A stretch of 64,000 bases of DNA from positions 407,446 through 471,445 of the forward strand of contig CAWDIE010000004.1 of NCBI GenBank assembly GCA_963802335.1. The letters run 5' to 3'. The stretch is from an uncultured Planctomycetota bacterium. Lineage in GTDB: Bacteria; Planctomycetota; PLA2; JAEUHO01. The notes beneath the pieces are model-generated. The model did no database searches. It saw nothing but the letters and a program-made list of their open reading frames with translations, and was not told the origin of the DNA. Shown piece by piece: positions 38,367-52,480 of the stretch. A program made the translations under genes and the position numbers. The stretch's first letter is position 1. Every line of letters begins with the position of its first letter.

Positions 38367-38454
38367 CGGCCGGTCCAAGGGAGAGAGCCTGATCGAAGCC
38401 CATTTCCAGTCTTCAGGCGGACACAATTACGTCGAGGGAGACACGGCGACGGTC
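38367..38454 (+). repeat. block B (~85 nt), copy 1; second copy 46022-46099
   Basis: cggccggtccaagggagagagcctgatcgaagcccatttccagtcttcaggcggacacaattacgtcgagggagacac is nearly identical at 46022. Confidence 0.7.
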
Positions 38455-38516
38455 TCGGCGCATCGTGCGTAACGCGGCAACGACGCGCAGCTTGGGGCGA
38501 GGTGCTGCAAGGAGAA

Positions 38517-38942
38517 TGGAGTGCCCGATCGGAGTCGAACCGACGCGAGGTCCCCTACGCTGCGCTCCGGGGACTCACGTCGGAACCGACCTGTGCTTTC
38601 CAAGGGGGTCTTCTCAAGACCCCCTTGCGGTCTCGCCTGCGCTGCGCTGCGGCGAGGCCTATCCCCCAATGAATGTCGTCGTGGCCTTGCCGGCGGGACG
38701 CGGCCCGAGGATGGGGACGCGCGGTGGAGTGGAGTGCCCGATCGGATTCGAACCGACGCGAGTTCCCCTTCGCTACGCTGCGGGGACTCACGTCGGAACC
38801 GACCTGTGCTTTCCAAGGGGGTCTTCTCAAGACCCCCTTGCGGTCTCGCCTGCGCTGCGCTGCGGCGAGACCTATCCCCCAATGAATGTCGTCGGAGCCT
38901 TGCTGACGATTGGCAGCCCGAGGATGGGGACGCGCGGTGGAG
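38517..38942 (-). repeat. two tandem ~213-nt units, each ending (minus strand) in a tRNA-like T-arm/acceptor/CCA
   Basis: The units are 38517-38729 and 38730-38942. Each contains the perfect hairpin GGGGGTCTT-GAG-AAGACCCCC and two stem-loops with 13-nt GCAGCG-rich loops. Confidence 0.75.
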
Positions 38943-39033
38943 TGGAGTGCCCGATCGGATTCGAACCGACGACATTCAGCTTGGGAAGCTGTGGGGTGGA
39001 CTCGGTTCCCCGGAGGTTCTCCGTGGGTTCCCC
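38943..39033 (-). other. att-like junction: 49-nt copy of tRNA-Gly positions 28-76 plus three GGTTCCCC arm repeats
   Basis: Positions 38943-38991 are identical to 52405-52453. The direct repeats start at 39004, 39015 and 39026. Confidence 0.7.
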
Positions 39034-39281
39034 GATTTCGGGATCCTGGGATTCGGGCTGATCGCGCGCTGGGATCGGAAGTTGCTGGTACTTCGTGGGT
39101 TGTGTCGACTCCCCTCTCGCGCTCATGAGCGCCCCCTGAGTAGCGGGGAACCTGGCCGCCTGTTCCGCCCCTGCCCCCGGATGGTGTCAGCCCGACGCGT
39201 CGAGAACTCGACGGCTGCCGCCCCATGTCGCGGCCCCCCGACCGCCATCTGCCCGCACACGCGCCGCGTACAATCGTGTTC

Positions 39282-39521
39282 ATGAGTCCGACGGTCTTCC
39301 GAGACGGCCCCTACCGTTTCTTCTTCTTCTCGCGAGAGGAGACGCGGCTCCACGTACATGTGGAGTCGTCAGACGGTGAAGCCAAGTTCTGGTTGGACCC
39401 GAGTATTGAAGCGGCTCGATCGCACGGCCTGAAGGAGAAGGATCTGCGTCACATTCGCGATCTTGTCGTGGAACATGAACAGGAGATCAGAGATGCCTGG
39501 ACCCGTCACTTCGGACGTTGA
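39282..39521 (+). CDS. DUF4160 domain protein
   Basis: FRDGPYRFFFFSREETRLHVHVESSDGEAKFWLDP is the hallmark of this family. Confidence 0.75.
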   Translation: MSPTVFRDGPYRFFFFSREETRLHVHVESSDGEAKFWLDPSIEAARSHGLKEKDLRHIRDLVVEHEQEIRDAWTRHFGR

Positions 39522-39870
39522 GGTCACCAACATCTCGCGGCACGGCATCTGGCTGCTTCTTGACGACCGTGAACTATTCCTTCCGTTTGAACAGTTCCCT
39601 TGGTTCGAGCAGGCGACCGTGGGAGCGATTCACAAGGTCGAGAGGCCTCAACCCGACCATCTCTACTGGCCGCAGCTGGATGTCGACCTCTCCGTGGACA
39701 CCATCGAGCACCCGGAGAAGTACCCCTTGAAGTCGAGGGGCGGGCAAGCCGTAGAGGGGGGTCGGACCTCAGTGCAAAGGCCCACGATCTTTGACACAGG
39801 CTGTCGCGGCCCCGGAGCTTTGACCCGGTGTTTAGGCCCACGACAATTGACACGCGGCCCAGACGCCTGA
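39493..39870 (+). CDS. DUF2442 domain protein (extended C-terminal tail, stop possibly displaced)
   Basis: It overlaps the DUF4160 gene. VTNISRHGIWLLLDDRELFLPFEQFPWF is typical of the family. The tail after ..YPLKSR looks non-coding. Confidence 0.6.
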   Translation: MPGPVTSDVEVTNISRHGIWLLLDDRELFLPFEQFPWFEQATVGAIHKVERPQPDHLYWPQLDVDLSVDTIEHPEKYPLKSRGGQAVEGGRTSVQRPTIFDTGCRGPGALTRCLGPRQLTRGPDA

Positions 39871-40102
39871 TTGCTGCGGGTGTTACTGGCACAACGTAGT
39901 GCCAGCGCGACGCAGCCGTGTGCCCCTCATCCGGGCCTGGCGGAATCTGACGGAATCGAGTGGGAAGGCTCGCGGACCGGCCGCCGCAACCATCGAGAGC
40001 CTCAGAACTCCGTACTGCGCCGGCCGCAGAAAATAGCTCCCTCGAGCCGATGCCAAATCTCCTGGGCCTATACAAGAGCACCGCTACACCTGGCCGTGGC
40101 AC

Positions 40103-50561: not shown

Positions 50562-51044
50562 ATGCCTGGGCATTTCGAGGGGAGCCGGTCCGTGAACAGA
50601 GACTTCGCCGAGATGTTGTCCGCATTGTCCGAGGCTGGAACTGAGTACCTCGTCGTGGGCGGTTACGCCGTGATTGCACATGGGTACCCGCGAGCAACCG
50701 GTGACATCGACATCTGGGTTCGCCCAACGCCCGAGAATGCCGAGAGGGTCATGCTTGCCCTGAAGCGCTTCGGGGCCCCCCTGGCCGACCTGACCGAGCA
50801 GGACCTCGTCACGCCGGGGCTGATCTTCCAGATCGGCGTCGTGCCCAATCGCATCGACATTCTCACCGAGATCGACGGCGTGACCTTCGACGAGGCCTGG
50901 ACCTCCCGCATCACGGCCAACGTGGAGGGGCAGGAGATACCCGTACTGGGCAAGACCGCTCTTCTCCGCAACAAGAGGGCGACTGGACGCAAGAAGGACC
51001 TTCTCGACGCCAACTGGCTCGAGGAGCCTGACGAACCCGCCTGA
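50562..51044 (+). CDS. nucleotidyltransferase-fold protein (DUF6036/AbiEii-like), cassette 4
   Basis: TEYLVVGGYAVIAHGYPRATGDIDIWV shows the NTase pattern. It is the closest paralogue of 34807..35265. Confidence 0.65.
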   Translation: MPGHFEGSRSVNRDFAEMLSALSEAGTEYLVVGGYAVIAHGYPRATGDIDIWVRPTPENAERVMLALKRFGAPLADLTEQDLVTPGLIFQIGVVPNRIDILTEIDGVTFDEAWTSRITANVEGQEIPVLGKTALLRNKRATGRKKDLLDANWLEEPDEPA

Positions 51045-51080
51045 CGAGCGCCCCGGCTACTCTGCGATCCACGTATGGCC

Positions 51081-51176
51081 CCACGATCCTCGACCCAGCC
51101 TGGAAACGCCTGATTCACGAGGGCTCCCGCTTGGCACCGCTGTACCTCTACTATCCCCGGATGCATGAGGCCTTGA
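51081..51176 (+). repeat. intergenic repeat R3, copy C
   Basis: ccacgatcctcgaccc..ggaaacgcctgattca..ggatgcatgaggccttga aligns with 37279-37383. Confidence 0.5.
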
Positions 51177-51205
51177 GCTCGCGGCCACGGATGTGATGCC
51201 CAGTG

Positions 51206-52141
51206 CTACTCGCTTGAGGGCCCCGCCTCCATCTCTGGGAACATGCGCATGAAGTACTGCGCGAACGATGCGCAGCTTTCGTCTGCGTAATCTCGGTACT
51301 TGGCCGAGAACTCGGCGATTGAGCTAAGCAACTCCGCCTGCGCGGGGGCGGAGCGCTCAAGCTCCAACCGGTCATTCAGGACAAGAAACTCGTGCAGGCA
51401 CCTCGCGACCGGCAGCTTCTTGGCGCCGGAGGGGTCCGCAAGGTAGGCCTGCACGAACCGACTCTCAACACGTCCAGCGAGTCGCCTCCCCACCTCCGTT
51501 GGCCTCAAGCGTTCGATTTCCAATCGCCCGTACGCGCTCTTGAAGAAGGGCCTCAGGGTTCGGGTCCCCGGAGCACCCATGCTCAGTCTCGTTGTGCTGA
51601 GAAACAGGCTGCGTCGAAACGGGTCCTTCTTGAGATCGGGGTCGTCTGCCTGCTGTGAATAGCCGCGGATCATGTTCACCATGGCTTCGAAGGCAACATC
51701 CCTCTCCCCGAACTCCAGAAGCAGAACAGTCAGCCAGGTGGATAGATCATCCCTGTAGCTGATGTCGGAGATGGGTTCGGAGAGCGCAATCCGCAACGCG
51801 CGAATCGCCCTGCTCCACTCCCCGCCCTGACAGTAATCGTGAAGGTCCTCTAACCGTGGCTTCGGCGGAGATGCAATGGCAGTCTCAGGCGAGGGTGGGG
51901 CGCCCTTGGCTCCATTCTCGCTCACATGATTGAGGGGAGCCGGCCCAAGCCGGGCTGCCGGCGCTTGCTCCTGTTCGCCGCGCCCGGCGGCTTCAGAATC
52001 TGGGGCTGCAGCCAGCGGCCCCCGACCGGAGTCGCTCACGACCCACACGGACCAGCCACCAATCATCAGAATCACCACCAGCAGAACTAGCCGCGCCAGA
52101 GACTTCGATTGCCCCACCAAACGCACGATCAGTACTCCCAA
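51206..52141 (-). CDS. hypothetical membrane-anchored protein
   Basis: An N-terminal TM segment (LARLVLLVVILMIGGWSVWVV) is followed by a low-complexity linker and a helical C-terminal domain. Confidence 0.5.
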   Translation of the reverse strand: MGVLIVRLVGQSKSLARLVLLVVILMIGGWSVWVVSDSGRGPLAAAPDSEAAGRGEQEQAPAARLGPAPLNHVSENGAKGAPPSPETAIASPPKPRLEDLHDYCQGGEWSRAIRALRIALSEPISDISYRDDLSTWLTVLLLEFGERDVAFEAMVNMIRGYSQQADDPDLKKDPFRRSLFLSTTRLSMGAPGTRTLRPFFKSAYGRLEIERLRPTEVGRRLAGRVESRFVQAYLADPSGAKKLPVARCLHEFLVLNDRLELERSAPAQAELLSSIAEFSAKYRDYADESCASFAQYFMRMFPEMEAGPSSE

Positions 52142-52161
52142 CTCCTAGGCGCCATTGTCGC

Positions 52162-52404
52162 GCAGGTTGGGGCGAGACGCTGCAAGAGGAGTGGAGTGCC
52201 CGATCGGATTCGAACCGACGCGAGGTCCCCTTCGCTACGCTGCGGGGACTCACGTCGGAACCGACCTGTGCTCTCCAAGGGGGTCTTCTCAAGACCCCCT
52301 TGCGGCCTCGCCTGCGCTGCGCTACGGCGAAGCCTATCCCCCAATGAATGCCGTCGCGGCCTTGCCGGCGGTACGGGGCCCGAGGATGGGGACGCGCGGT
52401 GTAG
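52162..52404 (-). repeat. single 213-nt unit (plus 30-nt leader shared with 38486-38516) directly 3' of the tRNA gene
   Basis: The tRNA-like end string starts at 52192. The hairpin is gggggtcttctcaagaccccc. Confidence 0.75.
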
Positions 52405-52480
52405 TGGAGTGCCCGATCGGATTCGAACCGACGACATTCAGCTTGGGAAGCTGACGCTCTACCAACTGAGCTACGGGCAC
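52405..52480 (-). tRNA. tRNA-Gly (anticodon CCC), CCA encoded
   Basis: The minus-strand sequence GTGCCCGTAGCTCAGTTGGTAGAGCGTCAGCTTCCCAAGCTGAATGTCGTCGGTTCGAATCCGATCGGGCACTCCA folds by hand into a full cloverleaf. It has a 7-bp acceptor stem, a 4-bp D stem, a 5-bp anticodon stem with loop TTCCCAA, a T arm GTCGG/TTCGAAT/CCGAT and discriminator U. Confidence 0.9.

What the first reader, a model, noticed from the sequence alone, without database searches (positions are those of the whole stretch)
38367..52480. Nine copies of the tRNA-Gly(CCC) 3' end within 14 kb: stacked att-like junctions but no recombinase
The string tggagtgcccgatcgga(t/g)tcgaaccgacg is the reverse complement of the T-arm, 3' acceptor strand, discriminator U and CCA of the tRNA at 52405-52480. 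It starts at 38517, 38730, 38943, 46164, 48255, 48472, 50099, 52192 and 52405. Three copies (38943-38991, 48472-48520, 50099-50147) match tRNA positions 28-76 over 49 nt, from the anticodon stem to CCA. That span is the classical core of tyrosine-integrase attL/attR sites. These three cores cut the region into blocks of about 9.5, 1.6 and 2.3 kb. Serial integration of related islands into one tRNA gene would leave this pattern. Yet I see no tyrosine or serine recombinase ORF anywhere in the 64 kb. The blocks are therefore either stranded, mobilised in trans, or generated by another mechanism.
Basis: partly seen in the sequence, partly recalled or inferred. Interest (0 to 1): 0.75.

Follow-up and report, generated by a model that had tools for sequence, protein, structure and literature searches.

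The report
tRNA-anchored array of integrase-less cassettes
Downstream of a glycine tRNA gene, small toxin-antitoxin-type gene blocks and cargo-less 213-base units, each ending in a copy of the tRNA's 3' end, appear to have piled up by repeated insertion; the same blocks occur in other species in a different order, yet none of the loci read here encodes the enzyme expected to move them.

Summary
A tRNA-Gly(CCC) gene lies at 52405-52480 (-), and eight further co-linear copies of its 3' end lie within 14 kb; none is expected by chance.

The copies fall into two classes. Three 49-nt copies (tRNA positions 28-76) each abut a conserved arm of about 250 nt with GGGGAACC iterons. They delimit cargo blocks carrying MntA/HepT, small AbiEii-like nucleotidyltransferases and DUF4160/DUF2442. 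Five 29-nt copies belong to a hairpin-rich, non-coding 213-nt unit (184 + 29 nt), so they are not island ends.

Related metagenomic contigs carry the same tRNA. Their cassettes are 86-98% identical to the window's, while the flanking core genes are only 70-77% identical. The cassette order differs, and homology starts exactly at the tRNA-derived core.

This fits repeated site-specific insertion at one tRNA gene (accretion), as with cis-mobilizable elements (CIMEs), tycheposon remnants or Dehalococcoides ssrA islands. No tyrosine or serine recombinase is found in the 64 kb or beside any related array, so the recombinase probably acts in trans. That step is inferred.

Still unexplained are the 213-nt unit, the hybrid site forms, and direct repeats that extend past the tRNA. 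I rate this a new variant of a known kind, of moderate interest.

The parts
52405..52480 (-). Intact tRNA-Gly(CCC) gene with encoded CCA; the anchor of the array
   Evidence: ARAGORN; Rfam tRNA 72.7 bits
52221..52404 (-). 184-nt hairpin-rich spacer of unit 1, directly after the tRNA
   Evidence: Alignments; fold z-score -4.3
52192..52220 (-). 29-nt copy of the tRNA 3' end (T arm, acceptor strand, CCA) closing unit 1; followed by trailer motif Y
51206..52141 (-). 311-aa ORF with a hydrophobic N-terminal segment and no family hit; cargo of block 1, in the position where an integrase gene would usually sit
50562..51044 (+). Small nucleotidyltransferase (160 aa), cargo of block 1. The cassette 50099-51073 is 94.8% identical to L028 1637-2613 and lies within the 97.7% match to L030
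50148..50396 (-). Conserved arm of cassette 1: GGGGAACC at 50160 and 50181, an inverted copy at 50300, and a GTGTCGAGAACTC motif at 50352
   Evidence: nhmmer E = 2e-65
50099..50147 (-). 49-nt copy of tRNA positions 28-76 (displaced fragment, attR-like)
49586..50014 (-). 142-aa ORF with no family hit, cargo of block 2
   Evidence: a homologue is called in L030
48725..49415 (+). MntA-like nucleotidyltransferase (48725-49081) and HepT-like RNase (49071-49415), a type VII toxin-antitoxin-like pair; cargo of block 2
   Evidence: Pfam NTP_transf_2 at 5.5e-16 and HepT-like at 5e-25
48521..48765 (-). Conserved arm of cassette 2: GGGGAACC three times at 11-nt spacing (48532, 48543, 48554)
48472..48520 (-). 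49-nt copy of tRNA positions 28-76
48255..48471 (-). Unit 2: 188-nt spacer plus the 29-nt copy at 48255-48283
46239..48099 (-). IS with an rve-type transposase (46484-47767), inserted into the small palindrome GGTCGGTT|CCGACG of the next spacer (halves at 48100-48254 and 46193-46238)
   Evidence: Pfam rve; split alignment
46164..46192 (-). 29-nt copy closing the IS-split unit 3; followed by the first 65 nt of another spacer and by the repeat at 46006-46099
39225..46005 (.). Block 3 (about 7 kb): DUF4160/DUF2442 pair (39225-39870), a CarboxypepD_reg fragment (40103-41074), an IS4-like transposase (41047-42759) and IS21 istA/istB pseudogenes (42924-45347)
   Evidence: window 38934-39797 is 86% identical to L028 4033-4888 and window 38940-39770 is 85% identical to L031 13866-14691
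38992..39242 (-). Conserved arm of cassette 3: GGGGAACC at 39004 and 39026, a near-copy GGAGAACC at 39015, and an inverted copy at 39145
38943..38991 (-). 49-nt copy of tRNA positions 28-76, the most distal one
38517..38942 (-). Two tandem 213-nt units, with 29-nt copies at 38730-38758 and 38517-38545; the latter has one T-loop mismatch
38351..38516 (-). Trailer motif Y (about 35 nt conserved after CCA) plus a 94-nt repeat (38351-38444 = 46006-46099, 93%) containing a hairpin just downstream of the nucleotidyltransferase gene
34807..38327 (+). Older toxin-antitoxin-type modules with no tRNA copy or arm: nucleotidyltransferases at 34807-35265, 36384-36851 (AbiEii, 96% identical to L028) and 37725-38327; DUF433 at 35356-35715; a chimeric pseudogene at 35986-36211

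Best explanation
This is an integration hot spot at the 3' end of tRNA-Gly(CCC), where a family of small mobile cassettes lacking an integrase has accumulated by repeated site-specific insertion (accretion). Each cassette is 1.6-2.3 kb before IS damage. It carries toxin-antitoxin-type cargo with a promoter-proximal conserved arm of about 250 nt, and that arm abuts a copy of tRNA positions 28-76. When a circular cassette recombines with the tRNA gene, its own tRNA-like segment rebuilds the gene. The previous 3' end, with everything downstream of it, is pushed outward. Successive events therefore leave cassettes separated by 49-nt copies. The GGGGAACC iterons, spaced 11 nt apart next to the core with an inverted copy about 110-120 nt further in, are most likely arm-type binding sites for a tyrosine integrase that is encoded elsewhere and acts in trans. 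The 213-nt units are cargo-less members or relics of a second site type. Their identity block starts at the T arm (29 nt). They sit between a core and the conserved tRNA trailer and travel with neighbouring cassettes. IS elements later invaded the array. What is shown: the copies, their two classes, the conserved arms, exchange of cassettes between species with reordering, and the absence of a recombinase in cis. What is inferred: the circular intermediate, the crossover positions, the role of the iterons, and the trans-acting integrase.
For: 1. Nine co-oriented, co-linear copies are present and none is expected by chance.
2. The 49-nt block starts at tRNA position 28 and runs to CCA. This is the same type of identity block as in a phage-like contig, where a partial tRNA-Gly(CCC) copy lies about 350 nt from an ORF that reads as a tyrosine integrase and carries the box II motif (L026). 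Anticodon-centred and T-stem attP classes are both standard (PMC4383910).
3. Exactly three arms exist in the window, each next to a 49-nt copy (nhmmer E = 6e-47 to 2e-65). They carry GGGGAACC iterons in a fixed geometry. The same geometry holds at every such site in L028, L029, L030, L031 and L041.
4. Cassettes are far more similar between genomes than the flanks. Versus L028: 94.8% over 979 nt, 96.1% over 836 nt and 86.4% over 870 nt, against flanks of 70.5% and 77.2%. Versus L031: 92.9% and 85.5%, against flanks of about 75%. Versus L030: 97.7% over 3144 nt, in a different context. Versus L029: 95.1% over 876 nt. Homology with L028 begins exactly at the core end (L028 1637 = window 50099), and the cassette order differs.
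5. The tRNA-derived 29 nt are nearly invariant while the adjoining spacer varies: 1 of 58 against 49 of 184 variable columns, Fisher p = 5e-6. This is expected if each copy was recently part of a working tRNA or is a functional site.
6. The same DUF2442 gene occurs in L032-L040 with neither core nor arm, so the recombination module is separable from the cargo.
7. The island has weaker third-position GC than its surroundings.
8. Literature precedent exists for serial insertion at one tRNA or tmRNA gene with degenerate members that lack an integrase (10.1101/2020.12.28.424599; PMC3146451; PMC5704250).
Against: 1. No tyrosine or serine recombinase lies in the window or next to the array in L017, L028, L030, L031 or L041. 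The only one seen sits with an IS91-type transposase 8 kb from the L029 fragment.
2. In L028 and L031 the repeat shared by the tRNA and the distal copy extends beyond CCA into a trailer, about 175 nt in all. That is long enough for RecA-dependent recombination.
3. L041 carries two sites in which a 51-nt insert separates the anticodon arm from a variant T arm that could not serve a tRNA. L029 has core-plus-cassette DNA with no tRNA within 10 kb, and the 13-kb contig L030 holds no tRNA gene at all. Not every move restores a tRNA.
4. The origin and role of the 213-nt unit are not explained.
5. Excision, circles and integrase binding were not and could not be observed here. All comparators are metagenome contigs.
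Confidence: 0.6

Rival explanations
1. Homologous recombination rather than a site-specific enzyme. Cassettes that share the 49-nt core, the trailer and the 250-nt arm enter by RecA-dependent single crossover. The array then grows, shrinks and reshuffles by unequal crossing-over and segmental duplication.
For: The repeats are long: core plus trailer is about 175 nt in L028 and L031. The window segment 38577-39045 matches 48100-48572 at 89% over 477 nt. The 213-nt units stand in tandem. No recombinase is found anywhere.
Against: The copies have sharp, recurrent boundaries at tRNA position 28 and at the start of the T arm, the canonical integrase sublocations. The core is perfectly conserved beside spacers that differ by 6-16%. 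An iteron-bearing arm is conserved across unrelated cargo. Copies within the window have diverged by 6-25% from one another, so they are not recent duplicates made in place.
Confidence: 0.18
2. A dedicated, integron-like capture platform. The tRNA 3' half serves as the primary site. Each cassette carries its own structured, multi-hairpin site (arm, anticodon-arm or GGGGGTCTT hairpin, 51-nt insert, T arm). One chromosomal recombinase encoded elsewhere captures and shuffles the cassettes, and the 213-nt units are empty cassettes.
For: All cargo blocks lack a recombinase but share one arm. Site modules recombine at hairpin boundaries, giving forms A, AB and B. Hairpins in the unit are kept by compensatory changes, with 9 such pairs across 7 copies. 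The L041 sites cannot be tRNA parts, yet two near-identical copies are kept. The cargo is rich in toxin-antitoxin modules, as in chromosomal integrons.
Against: No recombinase or attI-like platform gene lies beside the tRNA in three genomes. No attC core motifs (RYYYAAC / GTTRRRY) occur in any site. The cassettes are not single-ORF units; each holds two to three ORFs, some on opposite strands. Only a few loci are available.
Confidence: 0.15
3. The tRNA-like pieces are functional RNAs: tRNA 3'-half or acceptor-end mimics, transcribed divergently from the cargo, that act as decoys or antitoxins for the neighbouring nucleotidyltransferase toxins.
For: From my own knowledge, not checked here, MenT/AbiEii-type nucleotidyltransferases modify tRNA acceptor ends. 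Most cassettes carry nucleotidyltransferase-fold genes next to a copy ending in CCA. The unit is strongly structured.
Against: The idea does not explain why the arrays are anchored to the real tRNA gene in three genomes, why the copies are exactly identical to the resident tRNA, or why DUF4160/DUF2442 cassettes carry the same site. The unit matches no Rfam family. No promoter evidence was found.
Confidence: 0.03
4. Assembly artefact: a repeat-induced misassembly in a metagenome-assembled genome created spurious copies.
For: The source appears to be a metagenome-derived 544-kb contig. Several IS genes carry frameshifts.
Against: The same architecture appears in independent contigs from other assemblies: tandem 213-nt units, 49-nt copies with arms, and the same cassettes (L017, L028-L031, L041). 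The copies within the window differ from one another by 6-25%, so they are not collapsed or duplicated reads.
Confidence: 0.02

Closest known systems
Tandem accretion of integrative elements with cis-mobilizable elements (CIMEs), e.g. ICESt1/ICESt3-related arrays (review PMC5704250)
   Same: Elements that have lost their integration genes but keep att sites stand in tandem with others at the 3' end of one target gene. New arrivals insert into an att site and push older elements outward. Composite excision is possible.
   Different: Here every member lacks an integrase. The members are only 1.6-2.3 kb, or 213 nt with no cargo. No conjugation or mobilisation remnants are seen. They share a dedicated arm of about 250 nt, so they look like a cassette family built that way and not like decayed ICEs.
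Tycheposons and their remnants in Prochlorococcus genomic islands (bioRxiv 10.1101/2020.12.28.424599)
   Same: Serial integration occurs at one tRNA gene, with elements separated only by a partial tRNA copy. Further partial tRNAs are scattered through the island as traces of older events. Cargo modules are exchanged between lineages.
   Different: As described in that paper, tycheposons were identified as integrase-carrying elements, and fragmented integrases occur among the remnants. None is seen here. The host is different (high-GC, uncultured soil or sediment-type bacteria), as are the cargo (toxin-antitoxin-type) and the 213-nt hairpin unit.
Dehalococcoides ssrA-specific genomic islands (PMC3146451)
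   Same: More than a dozen direct repeats of the 3' end of one small-RNA gene lie downstream of it and delimit tandem islands that differ between strains. Some islands lack the integration module and were proposed to be CIMEs.
   Different: The target there is tmRNA, with a 20-bp repeat. [quoted passage not shown]
Classical tRNA-integrating phages and islands
   Same: The identity block runs from the anticodon stem or the T stem to the tRNA 3' end. The displaced fragment lies in direct orientation.
   Different: Islander requires an integrase gene in each island, so this array would be filtered out. Tandems of three or more were found only 4 times in 2168 genomes.
Integron gene-cassette arrays
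   Same: Small cassettes without a recombinase, each with one recombination site, are stacked head to tail at a fixed chromosomal position and enriched in toxin-antitoxin genes. Non-coding cassettes also exist.
   Different: There is no intI, no attI and no attC core motifs. The site is a tRNA 3' half plus an iteron arm, and the cassettes hold two to three ORFs, some on opposite strands.

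Membership tests
tRNA-targeting integrative island (Islander definition) | Intact tRNA gene plus a displaced 3' fragment in direct orientation on the same replicon | tested here: met
   One tRNA and eight co-oriented fragments
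tRNA-targeting integrative island (Islander definition) | The fragment starts at a canonical sublocation (anticodon-centred or T-stem) and runs to the 3' end | tested here: met
   Identity starts at position 28 (49 nt) or at the first base of the T stem (29 nt) and ends at CCA; the classes are as in PMC4383910
tRNA-targeting integrative island (Islander definition) | An integrase gene inside each island | tested here: not met
   No Phage_integrase, Resolvase or Recombinase hit in 50 ORFs; motif and tblastn screens negative
tRNA-targeting integrative island (Islander definition) | Variable presence in relatives and signs of foreign origin | tested here: met
   Cassettes are 86-98% identical against flanks of 70-77%; the order differs; third-position GC is lower
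Cis-mobilizable element (CIME) | Keeps attL and attR but lacks integration and transfer genes | tested here: met
   Blocks are bounded by tRNA-derived copies and have no recombinase or transfer genes
Cis-mobilizable element (CIME) | Derived by decay of an ICE or IME | tested here: inconclusive
   No remnants of integrase, relaxase or conjugation genes were found in the Pfam scans of island ORFs of at least about 70 aa. The shared arm and small size argue for a cassette design, but decay cannot be excluded.
Cis-mobilizable element (CIME) | Excised or mobilised by the integrase of a related element | not testable with these tools
   This needs the whole genome, long reads or experiments
Integron cassette array | An intI integrase with adjacent attI and Pc | tested here: not met
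   No tyrosine recombinase in the window or next to the tRNA in L028 and L031
Integron cassette array | attC sites with inverse core RYYYAAC and core GTTRRRY | tested here: not met
   Neither motif occurs in any of seven sites on either strand
Tycheposon | Integrase-carrying element (identified as such in the tycheposon paper), as opposed to a bare cargo block | tested here: not met
   No such genes in the island
Known RNA family (Rfam) for the 213-nt unit | A match to a curated covariance model | tested here: not met
   Only the tRNA passes its gathering score. The best sub-threshold hits are partial tRNA and chance hairpins.

The most novel reading that the evidence does not exclude
A second, independent version of the integron principle. 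In this reading the array is a tRNA-anchored cassette platform. Gene cassettes of 1.6-2.3 kb carry no recombinase. Each carries a conserved iteron arm plus a structured tRNA-half site. One recombinase encoded elsewhere in the chromosome captures, stacks, reshuffles and exchanges them between species. The 213-nt hairpin units would be empty cassettes, and the hybrid forms (51-nt insert, variant T arm) would be the cassettes' own attC-like sites.
Probability: 0.17. Interest if true: 0.8.

Novelty: new variant of a known kind. Interest (0 to 1): 0.5.

Why it matters
Standard island finders require an integrase in each island, so arrays like this one are invisible to them. Yet the evidence here suggests the cassettes move between species whose core genes are only about 75% identical. 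If one trans-acting recombinase serves a whole family of tiny cassettes that carry an arm and a tRNA half, this is a compact gene-capture system outside the integron paradigm. It would also be a source of a new recombinase and att pair for genome engineering. In addition, it offers a natural series in which to study how tRNA-linked hot spots are built, decay and are invaded by IS elements in uncultured high-GC bacteria.

Tried and rejected
- A genome-contig scan for the unit-to-core junction found nothing. Relatives of the neighbouring 298-aa protein in that collection are at most 55% identical over the best segment (most 31-44%) and carry no such tRNA end.
- A protein search at E <= 1e-30 returned nothing, because the threshold was too strict.
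- The metagenome scan gave one 1.5-kb contig, L017.
- IMG/VR scans for the core, for arm plus core, and for the 51-nt insert were empty. A scan for triple GGGGAACC iterons found only unrelated contigs. IMG/VR searches with two cargo proteins were empty.
- I looked for a cloverleaf or known RNA in the 213-nt unit. ARAGORN and Rfam were negative.
- I considered a protein reading of the unit, since 213 = 71 codons and an ORF runs through 38465-39061. I rejected it: there is no third-position GC signal, and one unit is 217 nt.
- I considered the IS91-type rolling-circle transposase seen near L029 and L031 as the mover. No trace of it is in the window.
- I considered the rve IS family, whose inverted repeat resembles a motif in the arms, as the mover. 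I rejected it because the block ends coincide with tRNA positions and not with IS ends.
- Promoter and terminator consensus scans were uninformative.
- An nhmmer profile of the arm found no further degenerate arms or cores between 34 and 38.5 kb.
- The organism could not be named with the tools left.

Full report
**Observation**

The window holds one tRNA gene, tRNA-Gly(CCC), at 52405-52480 on the minus strand. It occurs at exactly the nine stated positions, all on one strand, and none is expected in shuffled sequence. Eight copies are perfect. The copy at 38517 has one change in the T loop. The copies at 38943, 48472 and 50099 are identical to the tRNA over 49 nt (positions 28-76), and identity stops there.

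**Two classes of copy**

An alignment of all nine copies with their flanks, read in tRNA sense, shows two classes.

- **49-nt copies.** On the side where the tRNA 5' half would lie, each is preceded by a conserved arm of about 250 nt. The arm begins with two or three GGGGAACC words spaced 11 nt apart, with an inverted GGGGAACC about 110-120 nt further in. A profile of the arm finds exactly three arms in the 64 kb, each beside a 49-nt copy.
- **29-nt copies.** Each is preceded by a hairpin (GTCCCC, a 13-nt loop, GGGGAC) that belongs to a 184-nt spacer. Spacer plus copy forms a 213-nt unit. A unit follows the tRNA once. Two units follow the copy at 48472; the second is split by an rve-type IS at 46239-48099. 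Two units follow the copy at 38943.

The unit folds into four hairpins (z = -4.3). It matches no Rfam family and shows no coding signal. Across seven copies from three contigs, nine base pairs keep pairing through changes on both sides. The tRNA-derived 29 nt are almost invariant while the spacer varies: 1 of 58 against 49 of 184 variable columns, p = 5e-6.

**Gene content**

From about 34.5 to 52.5 kb the third-position GC signal is weaker than in the rest of the window.

- Block between the tRNA and 50099: a 311-aa ORF with no family hit and a 160-aa nucleotidyltransferase.
- Block between 50099 and 48472: a 142-aa ORF and an MntA-like/HepT-like pair.
- The 9.5-kb stretch down to 38943: units 2 and 3 with the rve IS (46164-48471), then a DUF4160/DUF2442 pair next to the third arm, a CarboxypepD_reg fragment, an IS4-like transposase and IS21 pseudogenes.
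- Beyond the last copy: further small AbiEii-like nucleotidyltransferases, a DUF433 gene and a chimeric pseudogene, with no copy or arm.

**No recombinase**

- Pfam scans of 50 ORFs over the whole window give no Phage_integrase, Resolvase or Recombinase hit.
- A six-frame search for the tyrosine-recombinase box II pattern is negative, and the pattern was found in both control integrases.
- tblastn with four tyrosine recombinases gives nothing.
- Only DDE transposases are present.

**Relatives**

Public genome representatives hold no close relative. Exact-protein look-ups led to metagenome contigs that carry the same system.

- **L028 and L031.** Both contain an identical tRNA-Gly(CCC) next to the same core genes (CBS, FGE-sulfatase, fasciclin, DsrE). 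Those flanks are only 70-77% identical to the window. Their cassettes are much closer. Versus L028: the nucleotidyltransferase cassette 94.8%, the AbiEii module 96.1% and the DUF4160/DUF2442 cassette 86.4%. Versus L031: 92.9% and 85.5%. Homology to L028 starts exactly at the end of the 49-nt core (L028 1637 = window 50099). The order differs: in L028 the DUF2442 cassette is nearest the tRNA, while in the window it is the farthest.
- **L030.** It carries window segment 48100-51237 at 97.7%, but between RHS genes and an IS21.
- **L029.** It carries a unit, a 49-nt copy, an arm and the MntA gene at 95%, with no tRNA within 10 kb.
- **L017.** It shows an arm, two hairpin modules and a 29-nt copy between two MntA/HepT cassettes.
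- **L032-L040.** They hold the same DUF2442 gene with no copy and no arm, so the recombination module is separable from the cargo.
- No array is adjacent to a site-specific recombinase.

**Interpretation**

The pattern has four main features: an identity block from the anticodon stem to CCA, direct orientation, iteron-bearing arms conserved across unrelated cargo, and cassettes exchanged between diverged hosts at the same tRNA. This is what serial site-specific integration leaves. A phage-like contig with a partial tRNA-Gly(CCC) copy of the same extent about 350 nt from an integrase-like ORF shows the usual arrangement. Anticodon-centred and T-stem sites are the two common classes (PMC4383910).

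Stacking at one tRNA or tmRNA gene, with older members pushed outward and some lacking integration genes, is documented for:

- CIME-ICE accretion (PMC5704250);
- tycheposons (10.1101/2020.12.28.424599);
- Dehalococcoides ssrA islands (PMC3146451).

I therefore read the locus as an accretion array of integrase-less cassettes served in trans. The trans-acting enzyme, the circular intermediates and the role of the iterons are inferences.

**What does not fit neatly**

- In L028 and L031, the sequence after CCA (a conserved trailer) is shared by the tRNA and the distal copy, giving repeats of about 175 nt. In the window, the unit-plus-trailer arrangement likewise recurs after the tRNA and after distal copies. 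Such lengths would also allow RecA-dependent insertion and unequal crossing-over.
- L041 has two near-identical sites in which a 51-nt insert separates the anticodon arm from a variant T arm that could not serve a tRNA. Together with L017, this shows that site modules are exchanged at hairpin boundaries.
- The 213-nt unit sits between a core and the trailer as if inserted with a 29-nt duplication. It is absent from the tRNA of L028 and L031. It carries nothing, and its hairpins are under selection. I cannot say whether it is an empty cassette, a relic or a functional spacer.
- These points keep an integron-like platform reading alive, although the sites carry no attC motifs.

**Verdict**

The feature is real and not an assembly artefact, because independent contigs show the same architecture. 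It belongs to the known phenomenon of tandem accretion at a tRNA gene. It differs in three ways: every member lacks a recombinase and is very small, the members share a dedicated arm, and they are interleaved with a structured cargo-less unit. I rate it a new variant of a known kind, with interest about 0.5.

Noticed in passing
window 30015-30310 and 33960-34141; L028 4895-6484: Remnants of an rve-type IS family bracket the 1211-aa ECF-sigma/CarboxypepD_reg gene (30313-33948). The IS is intact in L028, with inverted repeats GTGTCACGACCTTCTGCAC...GTTCGAGTTTTCGAC. The distal edge of the island is therefore marked by IS debris.
   Followed up: partly
window 37139-37281; also 49483-49525, 50352-50394, about 39188-39230: There is a MITE-like pair of the same IS inverted repeats at 37139-37281. 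A related GTGTCGAGAACTC motif lies inside the conserved cassette arms. Whether the arms contain an IS-end relic or a shared protein-binding palindrome is unclear.
   Followed up: partly
window 35986-36211: This is a chimeric pseudogene. Positions 35986-36103 match the 3' end of the nucleotidyltransferase gene (50912-51029, 90%). That piece is fused to 36094-36211, which matches the middle of the HepT gene (49177-49299, 89%). It is evidence of recombination between cassettes.
   Followed up: partly
window 37359-37433 and 51160-51181; L001 931-1191; L031 3380-3613: An IS3-like orfA beginning MHEALITIA is intact in other contigs. In the window only its first codons survive, each time just after a cassette gene and next to a GGCCCACGAYCYTTGACAC motif. 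L001 is 99% identical to window 50232-51150 and then diverges into this gene.
   Followed up: partly
window 52546-55370: On the 5' side of the tRNA, about 2.8 kb is absent from L028 and L031, where the tRNA lies 100-150 nt from the CBS/Usp gene. This segment holds an encapsulated-ferritin gene (52846-53133), a 298-aa ORF with no Pfam hit (53446-54342) and a 414-aa ORF with HNH-like cysteine/histidine motifs (54206-55450). So this side of the tRNA is also variable.
   Followed up: partly
window 46239-48099: The rve-type IS sits precisely in the small palindrome GGTCGGTT|CCGACG of a 184-nt spacer. This suggests the IS targets hairpins.
   Followed up: no
window 42935-43001 and 46349-46415: A 67-nt GC-rich repeat, 99% identical, lies at the ends of two different IS-related regions.
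   Followed up: no
L018-L025 (IMG/VR contigs): Triple GGGGAACC iterons at 11-nt spacing also occur in unrelated viral contigs of very different GC content, often in longer iteron fields. The word alone is therefore not diagnostic of this system.
   Followed up: partly
L029 317-3631: A tyrosine recombinase gene (282 aa, Phage_integrase at 1.4e-42) lies directly upstream of an IS91-type Y2 transposase, with a second SAM-like-domain ORF nearby. They lie about 8 kb from the array fragment. This is probably a separate element.
   Followed up: partly
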